This document shows positions 23,357-62,293 of a stretch of 64,000 nt of DNA, piece after piece. The notes under the pieces were generated by a model. It ran no database searches and was not told where the DNA came from. It saw only the letters and a list, made by a program, of their open reading frames with translations. This DNA is from Humisphaera borealis (GTDB lineage Bacteria; Planctomycetota; Phycisphaerae; Tepidisphaerales; Tepidisphaeraceae). The translations under genes were made by a program, and so were the position numbers. Location of the stretch: assembly GCF_015169395.1 (NCBI RefSeq), contig NZ_CP063458.1, positions 6,901,954 to 6,965,953 of the forward strand, read 5' to 3'. How positions within the stretch are numbered: the stretch's first letter is position 1; each line of letters begins with the position of its first letter.

Positions 23357-24820
<1,464 letters not shown>

Positions 24821-24907
24821 CTCGAACCTGACGTCGGCGTTCCCGGAGGCGAATAGATCACTGCCTTGCGGCTTCGACTCGGTGCTTCCCTTGATACAAT
24901 ACCCCAC

Positions 24908-47718: not shown

Positions 47719-49026
47719 ATGCCCACGACTCGACGCAACTTCCTTAAGTCAGCCGCGATGGCGTTGGGCGGTTTGTCGCTTCCGCAGCTACTCCGCGCCG
47801 AAGCACAGAACGGCATCCGGAACTCGCGCAAGTCGGTCATCATGATTTACCTGTGCGGCGCGCCGCCTCATCAGGACATGTGGGACCTGAAGATGGACGC
47901 CCCATCGGACATCCGCGGGCCGTACAAACCGATCGCCACTAATGTGTCGGGTATCCAGATCTCCGAGCATGCGCCGCGAATCGCGAAGATGATGGACAAG
48001 TTCGTCCCGATTCGCTCGCTGTACGGTTCGCCGAACGGCGCGCACGACTCCTTCATCTGTTACACCGGGCGGCCGCCTTCGGGATCGCCGCAGCCGGCGC
48101 GTGGCTGGCCGTCGCTGGGTTCGACGGCGTCGAAACTTCTGGGGTCGGTCCATCCTTCGATGCCGGCGTTCGTCGGGCTGGCCCCCGACGCCGGGCATCC
48201 GCCATACGGTTCGCCCGGGCATCCGGGTTTCATGGGCCCGAGCCATGCCGCGTTCCGCCCCAACGGCGACGGCATGAACGACCTCAAGCTCGAAGGCGTC
48301 ACCCTGGACCGCATGAACGACCGCACCGGGCTGCTTCGTCGCCTGGATACGCTGCGCCGGGACAGCGACAACAGCGGAAACGTTGACGCGATGGACGCCT
48401 TCCAGAACCAGGCGATGAATGTCCTGACGTCCAGCCGTCTCCTGGATGCTTTGGACGTTACCAAGGAGCCCGGTTCCGTCCGTGAGCGCTACGGCAAAGG
48501 GGACCCCAAGAACTACGGGGATGGCGCCCCGCTGAACCTCGAACATTTCCTGCTGGCACGACGGCTGGTGGAAGCCGGGGCGCGGGTTGTCACATTGAAC
48601 TTCGGTCGGTGGGATTTCCACGACAGCAACTACCCCCAGTTGCTCAAGCACTTGCCGCTCTTCGATCAGGGGGTCAGCGCCCTTGTCCAGGATCTGCACG
48701 ACCGCGGCATGGAGAAAGACGTCGCGGTCGTCGCCTGGGGCGAGTTCGGCCGAACGCCCACCATCAACAAAGACGGCGGTCGCGACCACTGGCCCCGCGT
48801 CGGTGGAGGGTTGCTGGCAGGCGGTGGATTCCGGACCGGGCAGGTGATTGGCGCCACTGATCGCCTGGGCGGCGAGCCGACCGATCGCCCCGTTCACTTC
48901 GGCGAAGTGTTCGCCTCGCTCTATCAGTTTCTCGGTTTGGATCTCAACCAGACAGTGCTGCACGATTTGTCAGGTCGTCCCCAATATCTGGTCGACGGCT
49001 GGAAGCCGATGCCTGAATTGCGGTAA
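47719..49026 (+). CDS. DUF1501 protein (Tat signal), no adjacent PSD1 partner
   Basis: MPTTRRNFLKSAAMALGG Tat motif. DUF1501 blocks (IMIYLCGAPPHQDMWD, GRDHWPRVGGGLLAGGG). Confidence 0.8.
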   Translation: MPTTRRNFLKSAAMALGGLSLPQLLRAEAQNGIRNSRKSVIMIYLCGAPPHQDMWDLKMDAPSDIRGPYKPIATNVSGIQISEHAPRIAKMMDKFVPIRSLYGSPNGAHDSFICYTGRPPSGSPQPARGWPSLGSTASKLLGSVHPSMPAFVGLAPDAGHPPYGSPGHPGFMGPSHAAFRPNGDGMNDLKLEGVTLDRMNDRTGLLRRLDTLRRDSDNSGNVDAMDAFQNQAMNVLTSSRLLDALDVTKEPGSVRERYGKGDPKNYGDGAPLNLEHFLLARRLVEAGARVVTLNFGRWDFHDSNYPQLLKHLPLFDQGVSALVQDLHDRGMEKDVAVVAWGEFGRTPTINKDGGRDHWPRVGGGLLAGGGFRTGQVIGATDRLGGEPTDRPVHFGEVFASLYQFLGLDLNQTVLHDLSGRPQYLVDGWKPMPELR

Positions 49027-49302: not shown

Positions 49303-49785
49303 GCAATTCGGGTCCTTCTTCATCGGGTGAGCCCCGTCGACCAAGGGCGGAGCCAATCGACGGTCCGGTGAGGAAGTCGGGTCATATGTCAGCGATTGGA
49401 ATCGTGGAACGACCGCCAGGTGGGGATGGCGGAAATGACGGGCCAAGCATAGCCATAAGACGTTCACCTAGGCAGGGATGCCGCTTCTCCGCGAGATATG
49501 TCTCGAAGTCGGTGACGTCATTCTCAGACGAACCCGTACACCTTGCCGATACGTCTGCAATTCGGTGGAAATCGATGAAGATTGTCGCCGAACAGAAATT
49601 TCGCTTTGCGAACGAGGCATTCGTGCGCTAGTGTATTGATACCGCGCAACACAGTGGGTGAAGCTGCGCAAAAGCCGTCATGCCGTCCGTCCCCCGGGCG
49701 GCGTTTGTTCTCGGTATCCCCGGGCTGCGGTCGGGAGATTGGCTCCCGAGCGCCCTTGCCAGCTCACGACGCAGGAAGTTTGATA

Positions 49786-52461
49786 ATGAATCAGTCGTTC
49801 TGGAAGAAAGCTGTCCGCTTGTCTCGTTTGCAAACGACCGAGGCGGGCGGGTCGAATCACACTCAGGGTGTTTCCCTCACGCGCGCCCGCGTGGAACGGC
49901 TGGAAGACCGCCGACACTTTTCCGCCGGCCCCGGTTCCTCCGGGACGTCTGCCGGGTTGGCCCCGCTCGCCGCGCAGACCCTGGCACTGGGCACTCCGAG
50001 CATTGCATCGGTAACGCCCGCCAATTCGACGACCGGCGTTTCCGTGGATGCTTTCATCTCCACCGAACTGAATATCCCCAACAGCGGCGTCGACACGGCT
50101 TCGCTGACCCCCAATACCGTCTATCTCGAACGCGTCAGCGACGGTGTTCGCATCGCTTCGGTCCTGAACACCTCAGGCGGCGGTGACGTCATCGTGCTGC
50201 GGCCGGAACTGCCGCTCGATCCCAGCACCGCTTACAAATTTGTCGTCACGTCGGGCGTCCGGGATCTCAATGGCGTCGGGTTCTCCCCGTTCCAGAGCAC
50301 CTTCACGACCGGCGTTCCGCCGACGGACACGGCCTCGCCCATTGCCTTCGAGCAGGTCGAGCTTCCGACGACCAAAGGGCACCAGTTCTCGTCGGTCGTC
50401 GTCTGGGGCAGTTGGGTCACCGCCGGTACGCTGACGGGCGAGATCTATCGCTTCCCGTTGAAGGCCGATGGCACGCTCGGCACGCCGACGGTCATCAACA
50501 CGATCATTGACCACAACGGCGGGCCACGGTTCATCGTCGGCCTGGCGTTTGACCCGGCGTCCTCGGCGACGAACCAGATCATCTGGGTGTCGCACACGGC
50601 GACCTCGGGCCTTCAGGTCGGCGGTGCCCCGGGTGAAGACTTCACCGGCACCATCTCCGTCCTGTCGGGTCCAAACCTGGAGAACATCCAGGACAAGGTG
50701 GTCCACCTGCCACGGTCGGTCCGCGATCACCTGACGAATCAGATTTCGTTCGGCCCTGACCGAAAGCTCTATTTCACTCAGTCTGCCAATACGGCGATGG
50801 GCGCGCCCGACGTCGCGTGGGGCAATCGCCCGGAACGCCTGCTGAGCGCAACGATTCTTCAGCTGGATGTCAGCAAGATTGGCACAACACCACTTGACGT
50901 CCACACTGAAGACGCCGACCCCTACGATCCTTTCGCGGCCGACGCACCGCTGAAGATTTACGCCTACGGCGTTCGCAACGCGTACGACCTGGTCTTCCTC
51001 GACGGCAAGATGTACGCCCCGACGAACGGATCAGCCGCCGGCGGGGCGACCCCGGAAGGACCGGGCATCCCCGGTATTCCCAAGGTGACCACCGCCGAGA
51101 CCGACGCGCTTTACCTGGTTCAGCCGGGCAAGTACTACGGCCATCCCAACCCGCTGCACAACAAGTTCGTTCTCAACGGCGGCAATCCGACGAGCGGCAA
51201 AGACCCGTTCGAAGTCAAGCAATACCCTGTCGGAACCAAGCCGGAGTCGGACTGGCAGAAGCCGATCTACGATTTCGGTCAGCACCAGTCCCCCAATGGC
51301 TCGATTGCGTACCACAATTCTTCGACGTTCGGTGGTGCGCTCAAGGGGAAGATGCTGGTGGCGCGCTACAGCGGCGGCGACGACATCATCGTGCTGACGA
51401 TGGGCGCCGATGGGAAAGTGAGTAAGGCCGAAGAGGGGTTGCAGGGTCTTGCAGGTCTGAACAATCCGGTGGATATCGTCGAGCACTGGAAGACGGGCAA
51501 CATCTACGTAACGGAGTTCGGGGCCAAGGAATCGGAAGGCAAGATCACGCTGTTGCGTCCGACGACCCCGACGGTTCCGCCGGTGGTCCCACCCGTCGTG
51601 CCGCCGGTGGTGCCACCGGTAGTTCCGCCGACGGTGCCGCCCACGGTTCCCCCGGTCGTCTCTCCGCCTCCGCCGCCCCCTCCGGTATCGCCGCCGCCGC
51701 CTCCGCCGCCGACCGGCCCGCTGGCTGACTTGGCGACGGAAGTCACCAAGGTCGTCCTTCCCGCGAACGTTCCTTTTGGCACGGCGGTGAAGGGCACACT
51801 CCAGTTCCGCGTGTCCAACATCGGCGACAATTCGTTGACGGGTCTGATCCCGATCTCTGTCCGCCTCACGGCCGACACCACCACCGACACCGGCGACACC
51901 GAAGTGGTCCGCTTCTTCAGGTCGCTCAACCTCAAGGCCGGCCAGAGCAAGATCGTCAAGCTCAAGATCACCGAGTTGCCGGCGGTCGCCGACGGCAGCT
52001 ACCACCTTGGCGTGATGCTCGACCCGGAAAGCGCGTTGTCGGAGAAGTCGGAAACCAACAACACCGCCGTCACGACCGAGGTCTTCAATGTCGCAACGCC
52101 GAGCGTGGATCTTTCCGGCCAGTTCGTCACCACCCCGACGAAACTGGTGATCGGTAAGAAGGGCACGGCGAAATTGACCGTTTCCAACAACGGCAACGTG
52201 CCCGCGGTGGGTTCGATTATCGTGCAGGTCGTCGCGTCGGCCGACGGAACATCCGGCGCCGGCGATGTCGGACTCGGTGCGGTCCCGCTGAAGCTGAATC
52301 TGAAGCCCGGTGCATCCAAGGTGGCGACCCTCAAGCTCCTTCTTCCGCCGACGCTCGCGCCGGGAACCTACTTCATCATCGCATCCCTCGACTCGACCGG
52401 TGTCATCACCGAGTCGAACGAAGGCAACAATGCCGCGGTGACATCGCCCCTGGCACTGTAG
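49786..52461 (+). CDS. giant extracellular protein, paralog 1: Ig-like (Big_5/SbsA-like) + glucose/sorbosone-dehydrogenase-like beta-propeller + [T/V]VPP repeat linker + 2x CARDB
   Basis: CAGGAAG RBS then ATG (MNQSFWKK...). N-terminal RLEDRRHFSAG motif. GSDH-like blocks (HLPRSVRDHLTNQISFGPDRKLYF, YAYGVRNAYDLVF, YGHPNP). Linker TVPPVVPPVVPP...SPPPPPPP. Two C-terminal CARDB-like domains (DLATEVTKVVLPANV..., VDLSGQFVTTP...NNGN...). Confidence 0.8.
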   Translation: MNQSFWKKAVRLSRLQTTEAGGSNHTQGVSLTRARVERLEDRRHFSAGPGSSGTSAGLAPLAAQTLALGTPSIASVTPANSTTGVSVDAFISTELNIPNSGVDTASLTPNTVYLERVSDGVRIASVLNTSGGGDVIVLRPELPLDPSTAYKFVVTSGVRDLNGVGFSPFQSTFTTGVPPTDTASPIAFEQVELPTTKGHQFSSVVVWGSWVTAGTLTGEIYRFPLKADGTLGTPTVINTIIDHNGGPRFIVGLAFDPASSATNQIIWVSHTATSGLQVGGAPGEDFTGTISVLSGPNLENIQDKVVHLPRSVRDHLTNQISFGPDRKLYFTQSANTAMGAPDVAWGNRPERLLSATILQLDVSKIGTTPLDVHTEDADPYDPFAADAPLKIYAYGVRNAYDLVFLDGKMYAPTNGSAAGGATPEGPGIPGIPKVTTAETDALYLVQPGKYYGHPNPLHNKFVLNGGNPTSGKDPFEVKQYPVGTKPESDWQKPIYDFGQHQSPNGSIAYHNSSTFGGALKGKMLVARYSGGDDIIVLTMGADGKVSKAEEGLQGLAGLNNPVDIVEHWKTGNIYVTEFGAKESEGKITLLRPTTPTVPPVVPPVVPPVVPPVVPPTVPPTVPPVVSPPPPPPPVSPPPPPPPTGPLADLATEVTKVVLPANVPFGTAVKGTLQFRVSNIGDNSLTGLIPISVRLTADTTTDTGDTEVVRFFRSLNLKAGQSKIVKLKITELPAVADGSYHLGVMLDPESALSEKSETNNTAVTTEVFNVATPSVDLSGQFVTTPTKLVIGKKGTAKLTVSNNGNVPAVGSIIVQVVASADGTSGAGDVGLGAVPLKLNLKPGASKVATLKLLLPPTLAPGTYFIIASLDSTGVITESNEGNNAAVTSPLAL
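51563..51715 (+). repeat. 12-bp tandem repeat encoding [T/V]VPP x7 plus 2x SPPPPPPP (paralog 1 linker)
   Basis: ccg-gtg-gtc-cca-type units visible in the sequence; translated TVPPVVPPVVPPVVPPVVPPTVPPTVPPVVSPPPPPPPVSPPPPPPP. Confidence 0.85.
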
Positions 52462-52514
52462 AGCGACCGGTTCGCCGACCAGCGTCGGCGGCTTTGGCGA
52501 ACAGCTTTTCGACT

Positions 52515-52570
52515 GACGCTCACTCCTGATTACGTCCCTCGCGGGACGCCGGGGCTGAGCGTCTTTCGTT
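52515..52570 (+). terminator. rho-independent terminator after paralog 1
   Basis: GACGCTCA...(inner CGTCCCTCGCGGGACG hairpin)...TGAGCGTC followed by TTTCGTT. Confidence 0.6.
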
Positions 52571-52654
52571 GGTGGCAGCTAACACTTGCCGGCTGTGCCC
52601 TGTCGCCACGCGGCGACTTTCTTTTCCGAACCGCGTCACTAGACTTCGTCGCAA

Positions 52655-53497
52655 ATGAAGCTTTATCGCACCACACTCGGCCCGATGGTCGAAACCAAGG
52701 GGTCCTGGCACGTCGTCCCCGAACTGGCATGGGACGCGATCTTCGCGTTGCCCGACCCGCGCAAGATTCTCATGGAAGGCGTCGAGGCCCGCGGGGAGAT
52801 CAATCGTCGGCCGGCGCCTTCTGAAACCGATATCCTCGCGCCGATCGGCTCGCAGGAAGTCTGGGCGGCGGGGGTGACCTATCTGCGCAGTCGCGACGCC
52901 CGCAAAGAAGAAGCCAAGAGCGGTGGGGGCGGCGACTTCTACGACAAGGTCTACGACGCCGCCCGGCCGGAGATCTTCTTCAAATCAACCGCGCACCGCA
53001 CCGTCGGTCCCGGGCAGGCCGTCCGCATCCGCAAGGACAGCAAGTGGAACGTTCCCGAACCGGAACTGACGCTGGTGGTCAACCCGGCGGGGAAGATCAT
53101 CGGCTACACCGTCGGCAACGACATGTCGTCGCGCGATATCGAAGGCGAGAACCCGCTCTACCTGCCACAGGCCAAGGTGTACGACGCGAGCTGCGCCCTG
53201 GGCCCCTGCATCTACCTGCCCGAAGACGGCGCTCCGTTGCCGCCACTGACGGAGATCAAGCTGACAATCTCCCGCGGCGGCGTGCAGCAGTTCCTGGGCA
53301 TCACCGCGATCGCCAAGATGAAACGCCGGTTCGATGAACTGGTCGAGTACCTGTACCGCGATAACAGCTTTCCGCAGGGCGTTTTCCTGATGACTGGCAC
53401 GGGGGTCGTTCCGCCGGATGATTTCACGCTGCACAGCGGTGATGAGATTCGTATTGAGATCGGGCCGATCGGCGTGTTGAGGAATGTCGTGGCGTAG
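52655..53497 (+). CDS. fumarylacetoacetate hydrolase (FAH) family protein
   Basis: FAH-fold blocks (KIIGYTVGNDMSSRDIE, EGENPLYLPQAKVYD, GTGVVPPDDFTLHSGDEIRIEIGPIGVLRNVV). Confidence 0.8.
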   Translation: MKLYRTTLGPMVETKGSWHVVPELAWDAIFALPDPRKILMEGVEARGEINRRPAPSETDILAPIGSQEVWAAGVTYLRSRDARKEEAKSGGGGDFYDKVYDAARPEIFFKSTAHRTVGPGQAVRIRKDSKWNVPEPELTLVVNPAGKIIGYTVGNDMSSRDIEGENPLYLPQAKVYDASCALGPCIYLPEDGAPLPPLTEIKLTISRGGVQQFLGITAIAKMKRRFDELVEYLYRDNSFPQGVFLMTGTGVVPPDDFTLHSGDEIRIEIGPIGVLRNVVA

Positions 53498-53590
53498 GGG
53501 CATACGGCGTATGCCCCCGGCCGGCCGGCGCCGATGTCGCCCCTCTTCCCGACAGCACCCATTGCGAAGTCGGGCACACGCCGTGTGCCC
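53497..53590. repeat. twin near-perfect palindromes GGGGCATACGGCGTATGCCCC and GGGCACACGCCGTGTGCCC
   Basis: Two related ~20-bp palindromes 55 bp apart between the FAH and trpF genes. Confidence 0.65.
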
Positions 53591-53603
53591 CTACAAGGAC
53601 ACC

Positions 53604-54311
53604 TTGAACTCCACACCGAATCACCACACTCGCGTCAAGATCTGCGGCGTCCGCCATCCGGAAGACGCGGCCTACGCCGCACGCTCGGGGGCTGACGCCA
53701 TTGGCGTTATCTGCTACCCGAAGGCGTCGCGGTACGTCGCGCAGGAAGAGGCACGGCTGATCGTGCAGACGGCGCCACCGTTCGTGACGCCGGTGGCATT
53801 ATTCGTGGACTCAACGCCTGGCGAGATCGCCGCCGTCGTCTCGGCGATCGGGGCGACGTGCGTTCAGCTTCACGGCCACGAATCGCCGGACGTGGTCCGG
53901 AAGGTCAACCTGCCGGTGCTCAAGGCGATCCGCGTGGATCGCACGACGTTCGAGGCCGAGCTCGGCACCTGGCGGAAGGCTATCGCCGAGGGCGGGCTGG
54001 AACATCTGCAGGGATTGGTTCTGGAAACCGCCGCGGGAACCGGAGAGGCCGGCGTCGGCGGGACGGGATTGGCCAACGACTGGACGTTCGTCCGCCAGGT
54101 CGCCGCCAAGGGAGAGTTTGCCGGCTTGCCGCCGATCATTGCAGCCGGAGGTCTCACGCCCGAGACGGTGGGCGAGGTGATCCAGTCGGTTCGACCCTGG
54201 GCGGTGGACGTCAGCAGCGGCGTCGAAGTGGTGAAGGCCCGGAAATCACCGAAGCTGATCAAGGCGTTCATCGCGGCGGTGCGGCAGGCCGATCTGTCGA
54301 AAGCTGTGTGA
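53604..54311 (+). CDS. trpF: phosphoribosylanthranilate isomerase
   Basis: VKICGVRHPEDAAYAARSGADAIGVI...VQLHGHESP...PPIIAAGGLTPETV matches TrpF. No in-frame ATG near the conserved start; TTG at 53604 assumed, so the start is uncertain. The track ORF upstream of this overlaps two palindromes. Confidence 0.7.
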   Translation: MNSTPNHHTRVKICGVRHPEDAAYAARSGADAIGVICYPKASRYVAQEEARLIVQTAPPFVTPVALFVDSTPGEIAAVVSAIGATCVQLHGHESPDVVRKVNLPVLKAIRVDRTTFEAELGTWRKAIAEGGLEHLQGLVLETAAGTGEAGVGGTGLANDWTFVRQVAAKGEFAGLPPIIAAGGLTPETVGEVIQSVRPWAVDVSSGVEVVKARKSPKLIKAFIAAVRQADLSKAV

Positions 54312-54332
54312 AACGATTGCATTAAACGCGAT

Positions 54333-54409
54333 GGGGAACGCCGAGCTCCAGCCCGGCTCATCAGTCTCCGCAAGTCCGGTAAGGAGCCGAGCCGGAGCTC
54401 GGCGTTCCC
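54333..54409. repeat. hairpin element after trpF (26-bp arms GGGGAACGCCGAGCTCCAGCCCGGCTC / GAGCCGAGCCGGAGCTCGGCGTTCCC)
   Basis: Imperfect inverted repeat read by eye. Confidence 0.6.
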
Positions 54410-54628
54410 AGGGGTGCACCTCACTTCAGGCTTTCCACCGCACATCACAGCACGCGAGTTTTCGCCGCGCGTTGCTCCTCCGGCGTTCTCTCTGGCGCTT
54501 CTTTTGAGTTGCGACCCGGTAGCCCTGATAAGGGCCAGCCCGTTCCGGGCAGATGGGCGCTTCGGCCGAACCGACTACTGTTTGCGTGTCGCGTTCGGGG
54601 TCCCCCGAAGTTCGTACCGAGAGCAGCC

Positions 54629-56248
54629 ATGTTTGAAACCCTCGAAGACCGCCGTCTCTTCAGCGTCTACGACTTCACCAACGTGGGCACCCTGGTGCTG
54701 GCACCGGTCAGCCCGCCGGTGATCGTCACCGGGCCGACGGTGGTGAATCCAGCTCCGCCGACGGTGCTCGCCCCTGAAGGCGACCCGAACATGGAGGTCC
54801 GCAACTCGATCAAGCTGGTCGGCCAGACGTTGTACATCACCGGTACGTCCGCCCCCGACTCCTTTCAGGTCAACCCAGCCGGGGCGAGCCTGATCGTACG
54901 GCGCGGCTCGATCGAATCGTTCCCGTTCCCCGCTGCCCAGGTGAAGAACATCATCATGGTCGGCTACGAAGGTGCTGACGTCCTGTTCGTCGATCCCGCG
55001 ACGAATGTCCCCGCGACCGTGCTCGGCGGCGCGGGCGACGATCACGTCTTTGGCGGCGCGGCGGCCGACTACCTCGAAGGCGGCACCGGCAACGACACCA
55101 TCAAGGGTGCCAGCGGCAACGATGTCATCAACGGCGGCGACGGCAGCGACAAACTCTTCGGCGAAGCCGGCGACGACACCCTTCGCGGCTGGGCCGGCGA
55201 TGACACGATCGACGGCGGTGCCGGCCGCGACACCCTCTACGGCGCCGACGGCAACGACCAGCTCTTTGGCGGTCTCGACGACGACACCATCTACGGCGGC
55301 AACGGCGACGACACCCTCGTGTCGGTCTTCGGCGGCATCGACAAGGTCAACGGCGACCAGGGCTGGGACATCTTCGTCGCCGACAAGAAGGACGTCCTGA
55401 CCGACATGGACAACCTCGCCAACACCCGCAAGAGCGTTTACCGCATCGACAAGTTCTCCAACCCGACCAGCGGCAGCACCTACGCCACCGAACTGGGCAC
55501 CACCAACATCACCGATCCCGCTCTGACGTTCAGAGCCACGAAGTACCAGAACTTCGGCCACATCCCGATCTTCACGGCGTCGGGTCCGAACATCGGCGAC
55601 GTGCAGCAGAACCAGCTCAACGACTGCTGGCTCGCCACCACCGCCGGCAGCGTGGCCCGCTCCAGCCCCTGGGCGATCAAGCGGACCGTCGTTCCCCTGG
55701 GCGACGGCACCGTGATGGTCGCCCTCGGCGGGGGCTGCTACCGCGTGGACGCCGATCTCCCGACCGATGCCAACGGCAAGCCGATCTACGGTTCGATCGC
55801 CGGCCGCAAGGGTGACAGCCTCTGGTTCGGCCTGCTGGAGAAGGGGATGGCGTATCACATGAATTCGGGCAGCGGTTACAGCTACGGCGACGTCGAATCC
55901 GATACGCCGGGCGTCGCCTACGACGCGCTGCGGATTGGCTACGACCGCTCGACCCTGGTGCCGTTCGGTACGGACGAATCATTGATGTGGGACAAGATCA
56001 ACAGCAATGTCAGCTTGCGGGCGATCACCATCACCACCGAGCCGGCATCGCTCGGCGTGAACAGCGCCCTTCGCCCGTCGCACGCCTACTCGGTCGTCGG
56101 CACGTTCCGCCAGGGCAATGGGACGACGATGGTGATCCTGCGGAATCCGACCGACAAGAACGGCATGAATAGCGGCACCGACGGCATGGTGACGGTATCG
56201 GCGAGCACGCTCTATTCGTCGTGCCTCTTGTTGTACATCTCGAAGTAG
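54629..56248 (+). CDS. secreted RTX-repeat protein with C-terminal calpain-like (peptidase C2) cysteine protease domain
   Basis: N-terminal TLEDRRLFSVYDF motif. About 10 hemolysin-type Ca-binding nonapeptides (GGAGDDHVFGGAAADYLEGGTGNDTIKGASGNDVINGGDGSDKLFGEAGDDTL...). Catalytic-Cys block QNQLNDCWLATTAGS, His block PSHAYSVVG, followed by Asn-containing region. Confidence 0.75.
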   Translation: MFETLEDRRLFSVYDFTNVGTLVLAPVSPPVIVTGPTVVNPAPPTVLAPEGDPNMEVRNSIKLVGQTLYITGTSAPDSFQVNPAGASLIVRRGSIESFPFPAAQVKNIIMVGYEGADVLFVDPATNVPATVLGGAGDDHVFGGAAADYLEGGTGNDTIKGASGNDVINGGDGSDKLFGEAGDDTLRGWAGDDTIDGGAGRDTLYGADGNDQLFGGLDDDTIYGGNGDDTLVSVFGGIDKVNGDQGWDIFVADKKDVLTDMDNLANTRKSVYRIDKFSNPTSGSTYATELGTTNITDPALTFRATKYQNFGHIPIFTASGPNIGDVQQNQLNDCWLATTAGSVARSSPWAIKRTVVPLGDGTVMVALGGGCYRVDADLPTDANGKPIYGSIAGRKGDSLWFGLLEKGMAYHMNSGSGYSYGDVESDTPGVAYDALRIGYDRSTLVPFGTDESLMWDKINSNVSLRAITITTEPASLGVNSALRPSHAYSVVGTFRQGNGTTMVILRNPTDKNGMNSGTDGMVTVSASTLYSSCLLLYISK

Positions 56249-56277
56249 GCTTTCAGCCGGCAGGCCGGAACCCTGTG

Positions 56278-56805
56278 TCACGTCGGCGACTTTGGCGTGA
56301 GCTCACCCAGCAATGACTGCAGGTCCAGCCGCCGGGTGAACATCGCCAGTTCGCCGGCGGCATTTCGCGGCCAGACGTCGGGCGGGCGATCCCAATACAG
56401 TTCAACGCCGTTGTCATCCGGATCGTGCAGGTAGAGGGCTTCGCTGACGCCGTGATCGCTGGCGCCGTCGAGTTGAATTTTCGCGTCGATCAACCGTCGC
56501 AGGGCATCGGCAAGTGCCGGTCGAGTCGGGTAGAGGATGGCCAGGTGAAACAACCCGGTCGTGCCCGGAGGCGGGGGCGAACCGCCCAGGCTTTCCCAGG
56601 TGTTGAGTGCGATATGGTGGTGATACCCGCCCGCCGAAAGAAACGCCGCCTGATGTCCCATTCGCTGCGTCACTTCAAACCCGAGGACACCACGGTAAAA
56701 CCCGAGCGACCGCTCGAGGTCGGCGACCTTGAGGTGCACGTGACCAATGCGAGTGCCGGGGTGGATGGATTGAGGTGGGGAACTCGGATGAGTCAAAGTG
56801 TTCAT
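56278..56805 (-). CDS. VOC-family (glyoxalase/bleomycin-resistance/extradiol dioxygenase fold) protein
   Basis: Two betaalphabetabetabeta modules (IGHVHLKVADLERSLGFYRGVLGFEV, YHHHIALNTWE, LFHLAILYP). Confidence 0.7.
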   Translation of the reverse strand: MNTLTHPSSPPQSIHPGTRIGHVHLKVADLERSLGFYRGVLGFEVTQRMGHQAAFLSAGGYHHHIALNTWESLGGSPPPPGTTGLFHLAILYPTRPALADALRRLIDAKIQLDGASDHGVSEALYLHDPDDNGVELYWDRPPDVWPRNAAGELAMFTRRLDLQSLLGELTPKSPT

Positions 56806-56832
56806 GGTTGCGCTTGCAGGTTCACGGGACTC

Positions 56833-56920
56833 GTTAGCCGCGACGCGCAGCGGAGCGTGTCTACGGCGCGGGGAACACGTTCGAGCCTTACGAAACGCTC
56901 CGCCCCGCGTCGCGGCTAAC
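56833..56920. repeat. hairpin element between VOC and FAD-oxidoreductase genes
   Basis: GTTAGCCGCGACGCGCAGCGGAGCGT ... ACGCTCCGCCCCGCGTCGCGGCTAAC. Confidence 0.6.
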
Positions 56921-56926
56921 CCACTG

Positions 56927-59029
56927 CTACTTCTTCTCCACCCACTGCACCGCGTCCGCGATGACGTATCCCGTCGCGCCTTCGTTGCTGACGACGACCG
57001 TCGCGGGCTTGTCGGTGGAGAACTCGAACACGCCCAGCGAGATGAACGCGCCCTCGATCGGTGCCGCCTTAGTCTGATCGACCTTCACCTTCTCAATGCC
57101 GCCGGCGTGGTGGATCTCGACCGTTGCGTTTGTCGCCCGGTTGGGGTTGACGCTGTACGACAGCCGTACCTCATACTTGCCGGCGGCGGGGAGCCTGGCC
57201 TCATAGCGGGCGGTCGCCGGCTCGCCTTTCCTGGCGGCGCGGTAGCCGTCGCCGACATAGTTGGGCTGGCTCGATCCGATCTGCCATTCGCCGGTGGTCT
57301 TCGCCTGTTCGTCGTCGACGACGACGCCGGGCAGGGCACGAAACTCCAGGCCCTTCTTCACGCCTCCGGCCTTCTGTGGGCCGGTGTACTCCAGGACCTG
57401 TCCGTCCTTCAGCAGCTTCTCGCGCAGCTTGGCGTATGGCACATCCTGCACGGCGATGTCGGCGTCGATCGCCATCGCGGCGGCGGTCGCCGACGATTCG
57501 CCGAGGATCATGAACACCGGTTCCATGCGGATCGAACCGAACGCGATGTGCGAGCTGCTGACACAGACCGGCACGAACAGGTTGTTCGCCTGCCCCTTCT
57601 TCGGCACGAGTGCTCCGTAGGCGATCTCGTACGGCCCCTTCAGGCCGACGCCGATGTCGCCTTCGTTCTGCACGTGGCCTTCCGGCGTGACGTACCGCTG
57701 GATGTTGTGCGAGTCGATCGTGTAGCTGCCCATGCCGACTGAATCGGGCGTCGGGCGGCGCTTGAGCAACTCGTTCTCGGTCATCACGTAGCTGCCGATC
57801 ATGCGGCGAGCCTCGCGGACATAGATTTGGTGCGACCAGCCGCCGTTATCGACGAACTCATCTTTCGGCAGGCCCCACTTCTGCATCGCTTCCTGGACGT
57901 CCTTGGGCACGCGCGGGTCGTTGGCGATGAAGTAGAGCCAGCCCTTCTGATAGGTCTCATGTTCTTTCAGGATTTCCTTCCGGCGCTCGTAGCTGGCGTC
58001 GGGGTAGTCGTAGTTCATGCCGATGTTGTCGGTGCTGAACGGGCCGTGGTTATTGGTGTCGGTCTTGTGATTGGGGATCGGGTCGAACTTGTTGAAGGTC
58101 TGCCGCCAGCCCTTCTCAAAAACGCGCAGGAGCAGTTCGTACTGTTTGGGGTCATAGCCGTCGGGCTTGGGGAAGGGGATGCGGTTTTCTTCCTTGTCGG
58201 TCAGGCACATGCGGTAGCAGTAGGCCTGGACCTTCTTGTCGCCGGAGCCGTATTCGCCGGGCTTCTCGGCGGTGATGCGCGGCAGCAGGCCGCTCTTGGG
58301 GTCGCCGGGGATGACGTAGGGGCTGATGTTCATCGTGCCGAAATGATGCTGGTGGTGCAGGATGCCCACCTGCACGCCGTTCCACTTCTCGTCGTAGATG
58401 CTGTTAGCCTCGCGGCCGACGTGGTAGTCCACGCCCGCTGCGGCCATCAGGTCGCCTTCGTAGGTGGCGTCGATGAACATCTTGCCGGTGTAGGTCTTAC
58501 CGCTGAGGGTGGTGATGGAAGTGATCTGGGCGCCGTCCTTCTTCACGCCTTTCGCCCGGTCGAGCAACTCATCGCGAACGACGGGGATCTGATGTTCCTT
58601 AACGAAGTCTTCGAACACTCTTTCGGCGGCGTGGGGTTCGAAGATCCACATCGTGCGGTTCTCGCCGTCGATGGCCGGCGTGCCCTGGCCCTTGTTGCCG
58701 TACTCTTCCTTCTTCTGCCACTTCCAGGCGGCGTCTTCGTTGTAGTGCTTCCAGATACGCTGATAGAACTCGCGCGACAGCCCGCCGATGACGGCCTTGT
58801 TACCGGTGTCGGTAAAGCCGAGCCCGCCGGAGGAAAGGCCGCCGAGGTGCTTGTCGGGGGAGACGACGATGACCGTCTTGCCCATTTTCTTCGTCTGCAC
58901 GGCGGCCGTGACAGCGGCGCAGGTGCCGCCGTAGATGACGACGTCATGAGCGCCCTCGGCAGGTGTTGCTGCATTGACAGGCGTCGAACAGCCGGCCAGC
59001 AGGACGGCCAGCAGAAGTACTGAGCGCAT
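56927..59029 (-). CDS. FAD-dependent oxidoreductase family protein (FAD_oxidored, PF12831-like), secreted/lipoprotein
   Basis: Signal peptide with LLAGCS lipobox. FAD fold VVIYGGTCAAVTAAVQTKKMGKTVIVVSP...GGLSSGGLG. 700 aa. Confidence 0.7.
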   Translation of the reverse strand: MRSVLLLAVLLAGCSTPVNAATPAEGAHDVVIYGGTCAAVTAAVQTKKMGKTVIVVSPDKHLGGLSSGGLGFTDTGNKAVIGGLSREFYQRIWKHYNEDAAWKWQKKEEYGNKGQGTPAIDGENRTMWIFEPHAAERVFEDFVKEHQIPVVRDELLDRAKGVKKDGAQITSITTLSGKTYTGKMFIDATYEGDLMAAAGVDYHVGREANSIYDEKWNGVQVGILHHQHHFGTMNISPYVIPGDPKSGLLPRITAEKPGEYGSGDKKVQAYCYRMCLTDKEENRIPFPKPDGYDPKQYELLLRVFEKGWRQTFNKFDPIPNHKTDTNNHGPFSTDNIGMNYDYPDASYERRKEILKEHETYQKGWLYFIANDPRVPKDVQEAMQKWGLPKDEFVDNGGWSHQIYVREARRMIGSYVMTENELLKRRPTPDSVGMGSYTIDSHNIQRYVTPEGHVQNEGDIGVGLKGPYEIAYGALVPKKGQANNLFVPVCVSSSHIAFGSIRMEPVFMILGESSATAAAMAIDADIAVQDVPYAKLREKLLKDGQVLEYTGPQKAGGVKKGLEFRALPGVVVDDEQAKTTGEWQIGSSQPNYVGDGYRAARKGEPATARYEARLPAAGKYEVRLSYSVNPNRATNATVEIHHAGGIEKVKVDQTKAAPIEGAFISLGVFEFSTDKPATVVVSNEGATGYVIADAVQWVEKK

Positions 59030-59482
59030 AAGACCTCCAGAGGAAGCGAATCAAGGACATCGAACCACGCACGTCGGACCAAGACCCCGCCGCCGATACG
59101 TTCCGCCAGATCCCAGGCGGCGAGGCTCGACAGTCTGGTGGAGTGGGGCGGAAGATTCAATCGCAAACCCCGGTCATGCAAGCTGGGACACTGACTGCAC
59201 GGGCCGTCGGTCGGCCACAGGCGTACCAGCTTTGGAGGTCTTCTGGAGCCTTGCAGTGCCAGTTGCGTGAATCAGACAACGCTCGATTGGGCACGCGAGC
59301 AAAATTCTAGGAAATCCATTGCAGCGGCCTCTGCTGCGGACTAGATTCTCGCCCGGACGTCGGGCTGTAGTGACAAGCAGTCGCTTGTCGGCGGCGTCTC
59401 ATGACGAGCAACTCAAGGACGAGCGTCTGACGTTCCATCCACTGCCGAGCAGTGGATGCGATTGTGATCGTGAGGCACAAGG

Positions 59483-62293
59483 ATGGTTGGGCAATCTGGG
59501 TACGTGCGTTCGGAATGGAGTCCGACGGCCGACATCGTTCGGCGGCGGCACTCCCCGGGTCACACCCGCTTCGTCGCAGAATCCCTCGAATCACGACGCC
59601 TGTTCGCCGCCATCGGGGGTGGCTCGTCTACGTTGGTGGACTCGGCCAACTCGGTGTTGGCTGCGGCTGTGCTGACTTCGCCGCAGGTGCGGTCCGTCAA
59701 GCCGACCGCCAACGCGAAAAATGTGCCGACCACCGGCTTCGTGTCCGCCGAGTTGATTCTGCCCAACGGCGGTGTCGACACGGCGACCGTGCTTTCCAAG
59801 AACGTCTACCTCTACAACGTTGCGGCAAAGACCACGGTGCCGGCCGTCGTAAACACCTCCGGTGGCGGGGACGTCATCGTCCTCAAGCCGTCCAAGGCGC
59901 TTGCGGCCAACACACAGTACCGCTTCGTGCTGACGTCGGGCCTGCAGGACGTGCAGGGGGTCGGCTTTGCGCCCTTCGAGTCGCTCTTCACCACCAGTGC
60001 CACCACCAGTCCGCCGTCCAACTCCCCGGCGAAGTTCACGCAGGCACCCCAGGCGAGTTCCGCGGGTCACAACTATTTCGGACTGGCGATCGGCCCCGAC
60101 GGCAGGCTCTACGCCAGCAGCGACGACGGCCGCATCTACCGCTTCGCGATCGAAGCCGACGGCTCCCTCGGCACGCCGTCGGTGTTCGATATCGTCCGCG
60201 CCCGCAACGGCGGCAGCCGGTTCATCCTGGGGATGGCGTTCGATCCCAGGAGCACGCCGACCAACCCGATTCTCTGGATCACGCACACCGCGACCTCATC
60301 GCTGGTGCTGGGCGGAACCGTCGGCGCCGATTTCAGCGGGAAAGTCAGCGTGGTCAGCGGACCCTCGCTGGGCCAGTACCGCGACGCCGTCGTCAACCTG
60401 CCCCGGTCGGTCCGGGATCACGCGACCATGCAGCCGACCTTCGGCCCGGATGGCGCGCTGTACTTCTGCCAGGCGTCGCAGTCGGCCATGGGCAAGGCCG
60501 ACATCATCTGGGGGAACCGCCCGGAGCGGCTGCTGTCCGCGGCGATCCTTCGGCTGGACGTGGGGGCGGTCGGCAGCTCGACGCTCGACGCCAAAACCCC
60601 CGACGCCGGCGGCACCTACAACCCTTCCTCGCCCGGTGCGCCGTTGACCATCTACGCCGATGGCGTTCGCAACGCGTTCGACCTCGTCTGGCACCGCAAC
60701 GGACAGTTGTACGCCGCCGCCAACGGCAGCGCCGCCGGCGGCAATACGCCCGCCGGTGCCGGTGCGCCGGCGCTTTCGGCCGTCAGCAAGGCCGAGAGCG
60801 ATTTCCTGTTCCGTATCACCCGAGGCGGGTACTACGGTCATCCCAATCCCCAACGCAAATACTACGTTCTCAACGGCGGCAATCCGACCGCGGGCAAGGA
60901 TGCCTACGAAGTCACCGACTATCCCGTCGGACAGAAGCCCGATCCGGCGTGGCGGCCGGCGGTTTACGACTTCGGCGCCCACCGCGCCCCCTCCGGCACG
61001 ATCGAGTACCGCGGCGGCAGCTTCGGCGGCGCGCTCGACGGAAAACTGCTCGTCGCCCGCTACAGCGGCGGCGACGACATCATCGCGCTGACGCTCGGCG
61101 CAGGCGGCAGCGTGACCAAGGCCGAGACCGGCATCTCCGGCCTGACCGGGCTGGCCGATCCGGTTGATCTGGTGCAGACGCCTGATAGCGGAAATCTTTA
61201 TGTGATCGAATTGGCGCGGCAGCGGATTACGCTGCTACGCGCCGCGACCACGGTGCCCCCGACCGTACCTCCAGTCGTTCCGCCTGTCGTTCCGCCCGTC
61301 GTCCCCCCGACTGTGCCGCCGACGGTTCCTCCAGTAGTGCCGCCCACAGTGCCGCCCACTATCCCACCGACCGTCCCACCCGTGGTTCCGCCGGTCGTCC
61401 CGCCGACTGTTCCTCCCACCGTTCCCCCGGTCGTACCACCCGTCGTGCCGCCCACGGTGCCACCGACGGTTCCGCCCACAGTTCCTCCTACGGTGCCCCC
61501 GACCGTTCCGCCGGTGGTTTCTCCGCCGCCCGCGCCGCCGCCCGCAGCGCTCGCGGACCTGACGCCGCTGGTCACGAAAGTGGTGTTGCCGTCGAGTTTC
61601 GCGTTCGGCACGCCCGTGAAGGGGACGCTGTCGTTCCGCGTGACCAACGCCGGCGGGCTTTCGTTCTCGGGACCGGTACCCGTCTCGGTGCAGTTGTCGG
61701 CCGACGGGACGGCCGATCCCGGCGATACCGAGGTCACGGCGTTCTCCAAATCGGTCCGCTTGCGACCCGGCGGCAGCGCCAGCGTCAAGCTCAAGCTCTC
61801 GGCGTTGCCTTCGATTGCCGCCGGCAGTTATCACCTGAACGTCGTGCTCGATCCCGCCGGGCTGCTGACCGAGGCGTCGGAGACGAACAACGCCGCCGCG
61901 ACGACCGAAACCTTCGCCATTTCCGCGCCCAACGTCGATCTCAGCGGCGCGTTTGTCGTCGGGCCGTCGAATCTGGCGATCGGCCGGCGGCGGCTCATCA
62001 AGATGAACCTCAGCGCCGCGGGCAACGTCGCGGTGAACCAGACCATCGTCGTGCAGGTGGTGGCTTCCACCGACGATACGCCTGACGCCGGCGACATCGA
62101 CATGGGTGCCGTCCCGGTGAAGCTGAAGATCCTGCCGGGGCAGACCAAGTCGGTTTCGCTGAAGGTCTATCTGCCCCCAAACATGGCGCCGGGCATCTAC
62201 CGCATCATCGCCACGATCGATTCGCCCCAGTTGCTGGCCGAGTCGAGCGAGACGAACAACATCGCGATGACAAATCCGCTGATCCTGAAGTAG
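59483..62293 (+). CDS. giant extracellular protein, paralog 2: Ig-like + GSDH-like beta-propeller + expanded [T/V][V/I]PP repeat linker (~22 units) + 2x CARDB
   Basis: Collinear, ~60% identical to 49786..52461 (e.g. IYRFAIEADGSLGTPSVFDIV..., HLPRSVRDHATMQPTFGPDGALYF, YGHPNPQRKYYVLNGGNPT). N-terminal SLESRRLFAAIGG motif. Exact start uncertain: first ATG of the ORF was used. Confidence 0.75.
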   Translation: MVGQSGYVRSEWSPTADIVRRRHSPGHTRFVAESLESRRLFAAIGGGSSTLVDSANSVLAAAVLTSPQVRSVKPTANAKNVPTTGFVSAELILPNGGVDTATVLSKNVYLYNVAAKTTVPAVVNTSGGGDVIVLKPSKALAANTQYRFVLTSGLQDVQGVGFAPFESLFTTSATTSPPSNSPAKFTQAPQASSAGHNYFGLAIGPDGRLYASSDDGRIYRFAIEADGSLGTPSVFDIVRARNGGSRFILGMAFDPRSTPTNPILWITHTATSSLVLGGTVGADFSGKVSVVSGPSLGQYRDAVVNLPRSVRDHATMQPTFGPDGALYFCQASQSAMGKADIIWGNRPERLLSAAILRLDVGAVGSSTLDAKTPDAGGTYNPSSPGAPLTIYADGVRNAFDLVWHRNGQLYAAANGSAAGGNTPAGAGAPALSAVSKAESDFLFRITRGGYYGHPNPQRKYYVLNGGNPTAGKDAYEVTDYPVGQKPDPAWRPAVYDFGAHRAPSGTIEYRGGSFGGALDGKLLVARYSGGDDIIALTLGAGGSVTKAETGISGLTGLADPVDLVQTPDSGNLYVIELARQRITLLRAATTVPPTVPPVVPPVVPPVVPPTVPPTVPPVVPPTVPPTIPPTVPPVVPPVVPPTVPPTVPPVVPPVVPPTVPPTVPPTVPPTVPPTVPPVVSPPPAPPPAALADLTPLVTKVVLPSSFAFGTPVKGTLSFRVTNAGGLSFSGPVPVSVQLSADGTADPGDTEVTAFSKSVRLRPGGSASVKLKLSALPSIAAGSYHLNVVLDPAGLLTEASETNNAAATTETFAISAPNVDLSGAFVVGPSNLAIGRRRLIKMNLSAAGNVAVNQTIVVQVVASTDDTPDAGDIDMGAVPVKLKILPGQTKSVSLKVYLPPNMAPGIYRIIATIDSPQLLAESSETNNIAMTNPLILK
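61249..61550 (+). repeat. 12-bp tandem repeat encoding ~22x [T/V][V/I]PP (paralog 2 linker)
   Basis: Same unit as in paralog 1 but about three times as many copies. Confidence 0.85.

What the first reader, a model, noticed from the sequence alone, without database searches (positions are those of the whole stretch)
49786..59650. Shared N-terminal LE[DS]RR[LH]F[SA] motif in three large exported proteins that lack classical signal peptides
Paralog 1 (VERLEDRRHFSAG), the RTX-calpain protein (MFETLEDRRLFSVYDF) and paralog 2 (AESLESRRLFAAIGG) all carry the same short motif within the first ~50 residues. None shows an obvious Sec or Tat signal peptide, yet their domains (CARDB, RTX, Ig-like) are extracellular types. 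The motif is a candidate planctomycete-specific sorting or export signal, or a processing site. In paralog 2 it also constrains which start codon is real.
Basis: seen in the sequence. Interest (0 to 1): 0.7.

Follow-up and report, generated by a model that had tools for sequence, protein, structure and literature searches.

The report
Known planctomycete N-terminal export motif
The motif shared by the three proteins is real. It is a local form of the "Planctomycete extracellular" N-terminal tag described in 2004 (Pfam PF07595), so this is an ordinary rediscovery, although how the tag works is still unknown.

Summary
LE[DS]RR[LH]F[SA] occurs exactly three times in the six-frame translation of the window (about 0.0004 expected). 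Each copy lies 5-39 residues from the start of a large + strand gene.

It matches the core of Pfam PF07595 "Planc_extracel" (consensus RRLxxExLExRxLLA; Studholme et al. 2004), which has been proposed as a planctomycete-specific export signal.

The window comes from Humisphaera borealis (Phycisphaerae). Its F-ending form scores below Pfam's cut-off (14.0 bits, 15.9 bits, no hit; cut-off 25.5). However, 46 of 77 homologue N-termini hit PF07595.

Among 120 homologues of paralog 2, the motif and a hydrophobic signal peptide almost never occur together (Fisher p = 2e-18). In a DNA-pattern scan of genomes, 15 of 18 PVC matches lie at the N-terminus of long ORFs that carry secreted-type domains. AlphaFold2 predicts residues 1-45 of the RTX-calpain protein to be disordered.

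The Tat, classical Sec, chance and DNA-level explanations fail. The export route remains unidentified.

The parts
49786..52461 (+). Paralog 1 gene (891 aa). It carries the N-terminal tag, a Big_5 Ig-like domain, a GSDH-like beta-propeller, a Pro-rich linker and CARDB domains.
   Evidence: ORF. Pfam domains. The same start appears in an independent gene call. It is 51% identical to paralog 2.
49894..49923 (+). Extended motif ERLEDRRHFS (residues 37-46 of paralog 1), preceded by V.
   Evidence: The custom HMM built from relatives gives 18.7 bits. There is no PF07595 hit at E<=10. The H variant recurs in homologue P0007.
54629..56248 (+). RTX-calpain gene (539 aa). It carries the tag, a disordered linker, an RTX beta-roll and a Peptidase_C2 domain with the invariant columns C333, H485 and N506.
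   Evidence: It is 100% identical to the NCBI 'C2 family cysteine protease [Humisphaera borealis]'.
54635..54664 (+). Extended motif ETLEDRRLFS (residues 3-12), at the extreme N-terminus.
   Evidence: PF07595 gives 14.0 bits, E 0.043, below the cut-off. The custom HMM gives 22.3 bits. L5, E6 and R8 are at least 90% conserved in the family alignment.
54629..54763 (+). Residues 1-45 of the RTX-calpain protein: the tag plus a low-complexity linker, predicted to be unstructured.
   Evidence: AlphaFold2 pLDDT is below 50 for residues 1-45. The rest of the model has mean pLDDT 86 and pTM 0.83.
59483..62293 (+). Paralog 2 gene (936 aa). Its architecture matches paralog 1, with a longer Pro-rich linker.
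   Evidence: Only ATG 59483 and GTG 59504 lie upstream of the motif in the ORF.
59579..59608 (+). Extended motif ESLESRRLFA (residues 33-42 of paralog 2).
   Evidence: PF07595 gives 15.9 bits, E 0.011, below the cut-off. The custom HMM gives 17.2 bits.

Best explanation
The three proteins carry the 'Planctomycete extracellular' N-terminal motif (Pfam PF07595, consensus RRLxxExLExRxLLA). Here it takes the form found in Humisphaera and its closest relatives: h-E-x-L-E-x-R-x-[LH]-F-[SA].

It is a short, unstructured peptide tag that acts at the protein level. It sits at or near the very N-terminus and is followed by a linker rich in Ser, Ala, Thr and Pro. It is fused to unrelated sets of secreted-type domains, and it occupies the place that a Sec, Tat or lipoprotein signal peptide occupies in other exported proteins.

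These points are shown: the identity of the motif, its N-terminal position, its modular use, and the fact that it and a hydrophobic signal peptide are alternatives.

This point is inferred: the tag marks the protein for export to the cell envelope or surface. The invariant residues are charged (E, E, R) and no hydrophobic core follows. I therefore think a dedicated recognition factor (a receptor, chaperone or peptidase) most likely reads the motif itself, rather than generic Sec recognition of hydrophobicity. I put that sub-claim at about 0.45. The translocon and any cleavage site are unknown.
For: Occurrence: there are three copies in the window against about 0.0004 expected, all near gene starts.

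Match to PF07595: it is the only Pfam family that matches the N-termini, at positions 5-19 of its 20-position profile. It is also the only family that recurs among homologue N-termini, hitting 46 of 77 with best E 1.2e-7. Homologue P0131 carries a precomputed PF07595 hit.

Literature: the consensus and the export-signal proposal are given in PMC8567305, citing Studholme 2004. In T. immobilis, 52 proteins carry the motif and 20 were detected. Eight of those were found only in the SDS-soluble fraction (S3), the fraction unique to homologues of outer-membrane-type proteins. Eight of the 10 longest proteins carry the motif.

Motif versus signal peptide, in 120 homologues of paralog 2: 47 have the motif and no hydrophobic stretch, 1 has both, 56 have a hydrophobic N-terminus and no motif, and 16 have neither (Fisher p = 2e-18).

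Second family: 26 of 31 calpain-RTX homologues carry the motif at positions 3-40.

Annotation-free DNA scan of genomes: 15 of 18 PVC matches are N-terminal in long ORFs, against 13 of 102 elsewhere (p = 4e-9). The PVC carriers have S8, S51, RTX, PKD, PA14/fn3/DUF11, reprolysin and CBM6/35 domains.

Structure: residues 1-45 are predicted to be disordered.

Specificity within the window: an HMM built only from relatives finds the three proteins (17-22 bits) and nothing else in the window (next best 6.3 bits).

Contrast: other genes in the same window use ordinary prepilin, Sec, lipoprotein and Tat signals.
Against: - All three copies score below Pfam's gathering cut-off of 25.5 bits, and paralog 1 gives no hit at all.
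- No experiment shows export or cleavage of these proteins.
- The T. immobilis evidence is fractionation, not localisation.
- Hydrophobicity was measured with a Kyte-Doolittle window, not a trained signal-peptide predictor.
- A mildly hydrophobic stretch rich in Ala, Val and Leu follows the motif in all three (maximum 1.3-1.9), so a weak Sec h-region is not excluded.
- The homologues used for the either/or test are related to one another, so the p-value overstates their independence.
- No recognition factor or machinery is known. No secretion-machinery gene was recognised among the genes flanking the three.
Confidence: 0.82

Rival explanations
1. The motif is part of an atypical, Sec-dependent signal peptide. 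The basic stretch plus E-x-L-E-x-R would act as an extended n-region. L-[LF]-[SA] and the following stretch rich in Ala, Ser, Thr and Val would act as a weak h-region, so no dedicated pathway is needed. YSIRK and ESPR are precedents for conserved motifs inside Sec signal peptides.
For: R-rich residues precede the motif in most homologues (logo). A mildly hydrophobic segment follows it in the three window proteins (maximum Kyte-Doolittle mean 1.28-1.91). The tag stands exactly where signal peptides stand in orthologues.
Against: The hydrophobic maximum (median 1.44) is well below that of homologues with signal peptides (median 2.88), with almost no overlap. Some carriers have no candidate h-region at all, for example P0020. 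The basic n-region is dispensable. Homologue L122 has no in-frame ATG, GTG or TTG in the 51 codons upstream of MIETLEDRRLF, and several relatives start within 3-5 residues of the motif. Invariant acidic residues are unusual in Sec n-regions (established knowledge).
Confidence: 0.3
2. The motif is a twin-arginine (Tat) signal, because D-R-R-L-F resembles S/T-R-R-x-F-L-K.
For: All three window copies have R-R-x-F.
Against: The second R is present in only 15 of 48 homologues (Q, C, A and others replace it), whereas E, L, E and the first R are invariant. No hydrophobic h-region follows. The Pfam TAT_signal model hits 1 of 77 homologue N-termini. A textbook Tat signal, MPTTRRNFLKSAAMALGG, is present on the DUF1501 gene at 47719 in the same window.
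Confidence: 0.03
3. The tag is not an export signal. It would instead be a surface-retention or anchoring module, or a propeptide or processing site. The RTX-calpain protein would leave the cell by type I secretion through a C-terminal signal.
For: RTX repeats are typical of type I substrates. Giant adhesins secreted by type I systems have N-terminal retention modules (established knowledge, LapA-type). The motif proteins of T. immobilis stay with the SDS-soluble cell fraction rather than being reported as released.
Against: The paralogs and most PVC carriers have no RTX repeats. In the RTX-calpain protein the RTX block is N-proximal (residues about 110-260) and is followed by the roughly 280-residue protease domain, rather than lying next to the C-terminus. 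The motif replaces signal peptides in orthologues, which points to targeting. Without another export signal, a retention or processing role alone leaves the proteins without a way out.
Confidence: 0.1
4. The similarity is due to chance, to paralogy alone, or to a DNA- or RNA-level element such as a translation-initiation signal, not to a protein motif.
For: The two paralogs do share the motif by descent. All six Glu codons in the motifs are GAA, although GAA makes up only 43% of Glu codons in the window.
Against: The RTX-calpain protein is unrelated to the paralogs outside the motif. Expected chance occurrence is 0.0004-0.03. Leu, Arg, Phe and Ser codons differ synonymously among the three copies. 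The amino-acid motif is conserved across two families and several planctomycete lineages.
Confidence: 0.02

Closest known systems
Pfam PF07595 'Planc_extracel' (Planctomycete extracellular motif; Studholme, Fuerst and Bateman 2004, Rhodopirellula baltica)
   Same: The core E-x-L-E-x-R-x-L-h-[SA] is the same. So are the N-terminal position, the fusion to diverse extracellular-type domains, the planctomycete host and the absence of a classical signal peptide.
   Different: The last hydrophobic position is F (H-F in paralog 1) instead of L-L. The upstream RRL part is weak or absent, and the RTX-calpain tag starts at residue 3. All three score below the Pfam cut-off. The host belongs to class Phycisphaerae, not Planctomycetia.
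LxLExLExRxxP variant in Tuwongella immobilis / Gemmataceae (PMC8567305)
   Same: The ExLExR core and the N-terminal position are the same. One detected T. immobilis carrier has a glucose-dehydrogenase domain, like the two paralogs here. Gemmata-type ExLExRxxP N-termini occur among the calpain-RTX homologues.
   Different: The tail is x-x-P there and x-L-F-[SA] here. Proteomic fractionation data exist for T. immobilis only.
Twin-arginine (Tat) signal peptide
   Same: It is a specific N-terminal sequence motif with invariant Arg that is read by a dedicated receptor. The R-R-x-F in the window copies resembles it superficially.
   Different: Here the RR pair is not conserved, no h-region follows, and acidic residues are invariant.
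YSIRK-G/S and ESPR extended signal-peptide motifs
   Same: These are conserved sequence motifs in the N-terminal region of very large surface proteins. They are grouped with Planc_extracel as signal-type Pfam families in PMC10952558.
   Different: YSIRK and ESPR sit in front of a normal hydrophobic Sec signal peptide. No such h-region follows here.
Double-glycine leader peptides of peptidase-containing ABC transporters
   Same: This is a short N-terminal leader without a hydrophobic core. It has conserved acidic and Leu or Ile positions and is recognised by sequence (my own knowledge).
   Different: There is no conserved Gly-Gly cleavage site here, and the cargo is hundreds to thousands of residues long rather than a small peptide. 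This is an analogy only and was not tested.

Membership tests
Pfam PF07595 Planc_extracel | HMM score at or above the gathering cut-off (25.5 bits) | tested here: not met
   RTX-calpain scores 14.0 bits (E 0.043). Paralog 2 scores 15.9 bits (E 0.011). Paralog 1 gives no hit at E<=10. Even clear PVC carriers found by the DNA scan stay below the cut-off, for example L109 at 20.7 bits.
Pfam PF07595 Planc_extracel | Consensus core ExLExRxL[L]-[AS] | tested here: met
   The three copies read ERLEDRRHFS, ETLEDRRLFS and ESLESRRLFA. They align to profile positions 5-19 of 20. In homologues, E, L, E and R are invariant in 48 of 48.
Pfam PF07595 Planc_extracel | Located at the N-terminus of the protein | tested here: met
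   The motif E is at residue 37, 3 and 33. In homologues the median position is 23.
Pfam PF07595 Planc_extracel | Basic RRL stretch upstream of the core | tested here: inconclusive
   Paralog 1 (LTRARVE) and paralog 2 (RRRHSPGHTRFVAE) have Arg-rich stretches upstream. RTX-calpain has only M-F before the core. Homologue L122 shows that this short form is real.
Pfam PF07595 Planc_extracel | Positional equivalence with sequences that the Pfam model does recognise | tested here: met
   46 of 77 motif-bearing homologue N-termini hit PF07595 (best E 1.2e-7). P0131 has a precomputed PF07595 hit and aligns in the same columns.
Pfam PF07595 Planc_extracel | Planctomycete host and extracellular-type cargo domains | tested here: met
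   The source is Humisphaera borealis, family Tepidisphaeraceae, class Phycisphaerae. The cargo domains are Big_5, GSDH, CARDB, RTX and Peptidase_C2.
Pfam PF07595 Planc_extracel | Actual export or surface location of the carrier | not testable with these tools
   Only indirect published evidence exists, for T. immobilis and G. obscuriglobus.
Tat signal peptide | Conserved twin arginine followed by a hydrophobic h-region | tested here: not met
   The second R is present in 15 of 48 homologues. The maximum hydrophobicity is 1.28-1.91. TAT_signal hits 1 of 77 N-termini.
Sec type I / type II signal peptide | Hydrophobic h-region of about 7-15 residues after a basic n-region; a lipobox for type II | tested here: not met
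   The Kyte-Doolittle 10-residue maximum is 1.28, 1.85 and 1.91, against a median of 2.88 for signal-peptide homologues. No Cys lipobox is present. No trained predictor was available.
Type I secretion (RTX) substrate | RTX repeats next to a C-terminal secretion signal | tested here: inconclusive
   The RTX block lies at residues about 110-260 and is followed by the protease domain up to residue 539. The C-terminal signal itself cannot be scored here. The two paralogs have no RTX repeats.

The most novel reading that the evidence does not exclude
The ExLExR tag could be the address label of a PVC-specific export or surface-sorting route that does not rely on a hydrophobic signal peptide. That route has remained unidentified since 2004. 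It would handle very large surface proteins rich in beta structure and calcium-binding repeats. The sharp either/or between the tag and hydrophobic signal peptides among orthologues would then give a direct handle for finding the machinery by phylogenetic profiling.
Probability: 0.3. Interest if true: 0.75.

Novelty: new member of a known kind. Interest (0 to 1): 0.2.

Why it matters
For this window it matters little.

Two practical points follow:
1. The Pfam model, which appears tuned to the L-L-ending R. baltica-type consensus (my inference), misses this F-ending form. Only 1 of 240 listed homologues carries a precomputed PF07595 hit, although at least 77 have the motif. Exported proteins in these genomes are therefore under-annotated. 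Some homologue gene starts are also probably called too far downstream: 16 of 120 have neither the tag nor a signal peptide.
2. The mechanism is still open. Showing that the tag and hydrophobic signal peptides are alternatives on orthologous cargo, and that the tag works from residue 3 without a basic n-region, narrows the options. It also suggests simple reporter and profiling experiments.

Tried and rejected
**Explanations rejected**
- Tat signal: the RR pair is not conserved and no h-region follows.
- Classical Sec or lipoprotein signal: hydrophobicity is too low and there is no lipobox.
- A hidden signal peptide upstream of the annotated starts: the upstream in-frame sequence is short (paralog 2 has 3 codons) or not hydrophobic.
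- Chance.
- Paralogy alone.
- A DNA-level element: the codons differ synonymously.

**Searches that found nothing**
- NCBIfam has no model that hits the N-termini.
- Literature searches for motif strings and for planctomycete secretome work found nothing beyond PMC8567305 and a methods mention in PMC10952558.

**Dead ends**
- Studholme et al. 2004 is not held in the library, so its content is cited through PMC8567305 and PMC3343278.
- The supplement search of PMC8567305 returned only table legends.
- Protein comparison on the two paralogs returned only spurious short matches. I repeated the comparison with blastp in a script.
- The look-up of encoding contigs gave no DNA for P0127 and P0128.
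Of the 120, 47 are the antisense strand of nuoF. Others lie inside Lrp/AsnC-like and LuxR-like regulators. These served as a control, not as evidence.
- No whole-genome census of H. borealis was possible with these tools.
Full report
**1. The observation**

The pattern LE[DS]RR[LH]F[SA] occurs exactly three times in the six-frame translation of the 64 kb window. The positions are 49900-49923, 54641-54664 and 59585-59608, all on the + strand. From six-frame amino-acid composition, 0.0004 occurrences are expected. For the longer form E.LE.R..[LF][SA], 0.02-0.03 are expected and 3 are found.

The three genes are:
- 49786-52461 (891 aa; Big_5, GSDH-like propeller, CARDB)
- 54629-56248 (539 aa; RTX repeats, Peptidase_C2)
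- 59483-62293 (936 aa; same architecture as the first)

Starts are supported for two genes. An independent gene call supports the start of paralog 1. The NCBI protein supports the start of the RTX-calpain gene. For paralog 2, only ATG 59483 and GTG 59504 lie upstream of the motif in the ORF. The L of LE is therefore residue 39, 5 and 35.

The two large proteins are 51% identical over 915 aligned residues, including the motif region, so they share the motif by descent. The RTX-calpain protein is unrelated to them outside the motif. Leu, Arg, Phe and Ser codons differ among the copies, so conservation is at the protein level.

**2. Source organism**

The RTX-calpain protein is 100% identical to "C2 family cysteine protease [Humisphaera borealis]", found on a 7.19 Mb contig. 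This organism belongs to the family Tepidisphaeraceae, class Phycisphaerae, phylum Planctomycetota.

**3. What the motif is**

A text search for motif strings found PMC8567305. [quoted passage not shown] 2004; Pfam PF07595). It also reports an LxLExLExRxxP version on 52 Tuwongella immobilis proteins. Of these, 20 were detected by proteomics, and 8 of those were found only in the SDS-soluble fraction. Eight of the 10 longest proteins of that genome carry the motif. PMC3343278 repeats the 2004 claim. The 2004 paper itself is not held.

I scanned the N-terminal fragments against Pfam:

| Protein | PF07595 score | E-value | Profile positions |
|---|---|---|---|
| RTX-calpain | 14.0 bits | 0.043 | 6-15 of 20 |
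| Paralog 2 | 15.9 bits | 0.011 | 7-19 of 20 |
| Paralog 1 | no hit | - | - |

All are below the 25.5-bit cut-off, so formal Pfam membership is not met.

The link to PF07595 is nevertheless firm:
- Among homologues of the two families, 77 carry E.[LIVMF]E.R..h in the first 100 residues.
- 46 of these 77 N-terminal fragments hit PF07595 (best E 1.2e-7). It is the only family that recurs.
- Homologue P0131 has a precomputed PF07595 hit and aligns in the same columns. L5, E6 and R8 are at least 90% conserved in that alignment.

**4. Anatomy**

I aligned the 48 motif-bearing homologues of paralog 2 on the motif. This gives an Arg-rich stretch, then [AP]-[VL]-[IVL]-E-x-L-E-x-R-x-L-[LF]-[SA], then a stretch rich in Ala, Ser, Thr and Pro with no strongly conserved cleavage site.

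- The second R is present in only 15 of 48.
- F at the last hydrophobic position is typical of the closest relatives (P0001, P0003-P0009). The H of paralog 1 recurs in P0007.

The basic stretch is dispensable. Several calpain-RTX relatives begin M-I/F-E-T-L-E. In homologue L122 there is no in-frame ATG, GTG or TTG in the 51 codons upstream of MIETLEDRRLF.

AlphaFold2, run with a 29-sequence alignment, gives a confident model (mean pLDDT 86, pTM 0.83). The exception is residues 1-45, where pLDDT is about 30. The tag and linker are therefore not part of any fold.

**5. Tests of the export-signal reading**

(a) *Either/or with signal peptides.* Counts for the 120 best homologues of paralog 2:

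| N-terminus | Count |
|---|---|
| Motif, no hydrophobic stretch | 47 |
| Motif and hydrophobic stretch | 1 |
| Hydrophobic N-terminus, no motif | 56 |
| Neither (many look like truncated gene calls) | 16 |

Fisher p = 2e-18. The median 10-residue Kyte-Doolittle maximum is 1.44 with the motif and 2.88 without. The three window proteins score 1.28, 1.85 and 1.91. The homologues are related to one another, so this p-value overstates independence.

(b) *Second family.* 26 of 31 calpain-RTX homologues carry the motif at positions 3-40. These include Gemmata-type ExLExRxxP forms.

(c) *Annotation-free scan.* The back-translated pattern GARNNNCTSGARNNNCGNCGNCTSTTCNSC was scanned across one genome per species.
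- Of 18 matches in Planctomycetota or Verrucomicrobiota, 15 lie within 70 codons of the first start of a long ORF. Elsewhere the figure is 13 of 102 by the same loose rule (p = 4e-9).
- The non-PVC matches are mostly not real N-termini. 47 are the antisense strand of nuoF. Others lie inside Lrp/AsnC-like and LuxR-like regulators or a small clostridial protein.
- The PVC carriers have S8 and S51 peptidase, RTX, PKD, PA14/fn3/DUF11, reprolysin and CBM6/35 domains.

(d) *Within the window.* An HMM built only from relatives finds the three proteins (17.2-22.3 bits) and nothing else (next best 6.3 bits). Other exported proteins in the same window use ordinary signals:
- a prepilin-type N_methyl/DUF1559 protein at 3084-3881
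- a Sec signal on PSCyt1 at 33256
- a lipoprotein signal on the FAD oxidoreductase at 56927-59029 (- strand)
- a Tat signal on DUF1501 at 47719

**6. Mechanism**

Shown: this is a modular, unstructured, protein-level N-terminal tag. It stands where signal peptides stand on orthologous cargo, and it lacks a hydrophobic core.

Inferred: it directs export to the envelope or surface. Its invariant residues are charged, and it can work from residue 3. I therefore favour recognition of the motif itself by a dedicated factor (about 0.45). An atypical Sec signal with a weak h-region is the main rival (about 0.3). A retention or processing role is less likely (about 0.1).

The Tat, chance and nucleic-acid explanations are rejected. 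No secretion-machinery gene was recognised among the genes flanking the three. The neighbours identified by Pfam include FAA hydrolase, PRAI, glyoxalase, FAD oxidoreductase and fatty-acid hydroxylase genes.

**7. Comparison and novelty**

This is the known PF07595 motif in a Phycisphaerae form that the Pfam model under-detects. Only 1 of 240 listed homologues carries a precomputed PF07595 hit.

I found no paper that identifies the export route. I rate the finding a new member of a known kind, with low interest. There is a modest residual chance that the tag marks a still-unknown PVC export route.

Noticed in passing
window 54531-54560 (about 70-100 nt upstream of the RTX-calpain ATG); L122 about 1390-1420: A block of about 30 nt, GCCCTGATAAGGGCCAGCCCGTTCCGGGC, is conserved between the window and the 59%-identical homologue locus L122, although the surrounding upstream DNA has diverged. 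It contains two short inverted repeats (GCCC..GGGC and GCCCG..CGGGC). It could be a regulatory site or a leader hairpin.
   Followed up: partly
window 49693-49719: The ORF reads PGRRLFSVS in frame with paralog 1 but upstream of its ATG. This matches the tail of the motif (RRLFSV, as in the RTX-calpain protein) without the E-x-L-E part. It is the best sub-threshold hit of the custom HMM in the window (6.3 bits). It could be a relic of an older tag or a chance match.
   Followed up: partly
window 51559-51714 and 61247-61531: Pro-rich (V/T)PP(V/T) linkers lie between the propeller and the CARDB domains. They are encoded by imperfect tandem repeats of period 12, 24, 36 or 60. The linker is 52 residues long in paralog 1 and 95 in paralog 2, which suggests repeat expansion or contraction.
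   Followed up: partly
loci L003, L012-L020 and 38 others from the genome scan: 47 of the 120 DNA-pattern matches are the antisense strand of the highly conserved nuoF segment ...CGEETALLESLEG.... In that antisense frame the sequence reads ALEALEHRRLFAADVG. This is a recurrent false positive for any back-translated search for this motif.
   Followed up: yes
L036:1473-3260 (+): A MAG labelled Verrucomicrobiota encodes a subtilase (Peptidase_S8) that begins ...IIAEALEPRRLFATAW. The tag may therefore extend beyond Planctomycetota within the PVC group, or the contig may be mis-binned. Similarly, P0066 carries the tag but is labelled Mycobacterium sp..
   Followed up: no
homologues P0002, P0018, P0023, P0027, P0030, P0053 and others: 16 of the 120 homologue gene calls have neither the tag nor a hydrophobic N-terminus, and they begin inside the linker or the Big_5 domain. 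Their starts were probably called too far downstream. The motif could be used to correct such starts.
   Followed up: partly
window 3084-3881, 33256-35846, 23357-25417, 47719-49026: The window also holds other planctomycete-typical families: N_methyl/DUF1559, PSCyt1 with PSCyt2 and PSD1, and two DUF1501 genes. Each has an ordinary prepilin, Sec or Tat signal. In the mechanically listed 686-aa ORF at 23357-25417, the DUF1501 match begins only at residue 261, so the true start is probably internal.
   Followed up: partly
window 54629-56248: The calpain-like domain keeps the invariant columns Q327, C333, H485 and N506 across 29 homologues. The predicted fold is confident, so the protein is probably an active Ca-dependent cysteine protease joined to an RTX beta-roll.
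   Followed up: partly
window 49894-49908, 54635-54649, 59579-59593: All six Glu codons of the three motifs are GAA, although GAA makes up only 43% of Glu codons in the window's genes. If the codons were independent, the probability would be about 0.006. This may reflect a preference for A/T-rich codons near starts, or chance.
   Followed up: no
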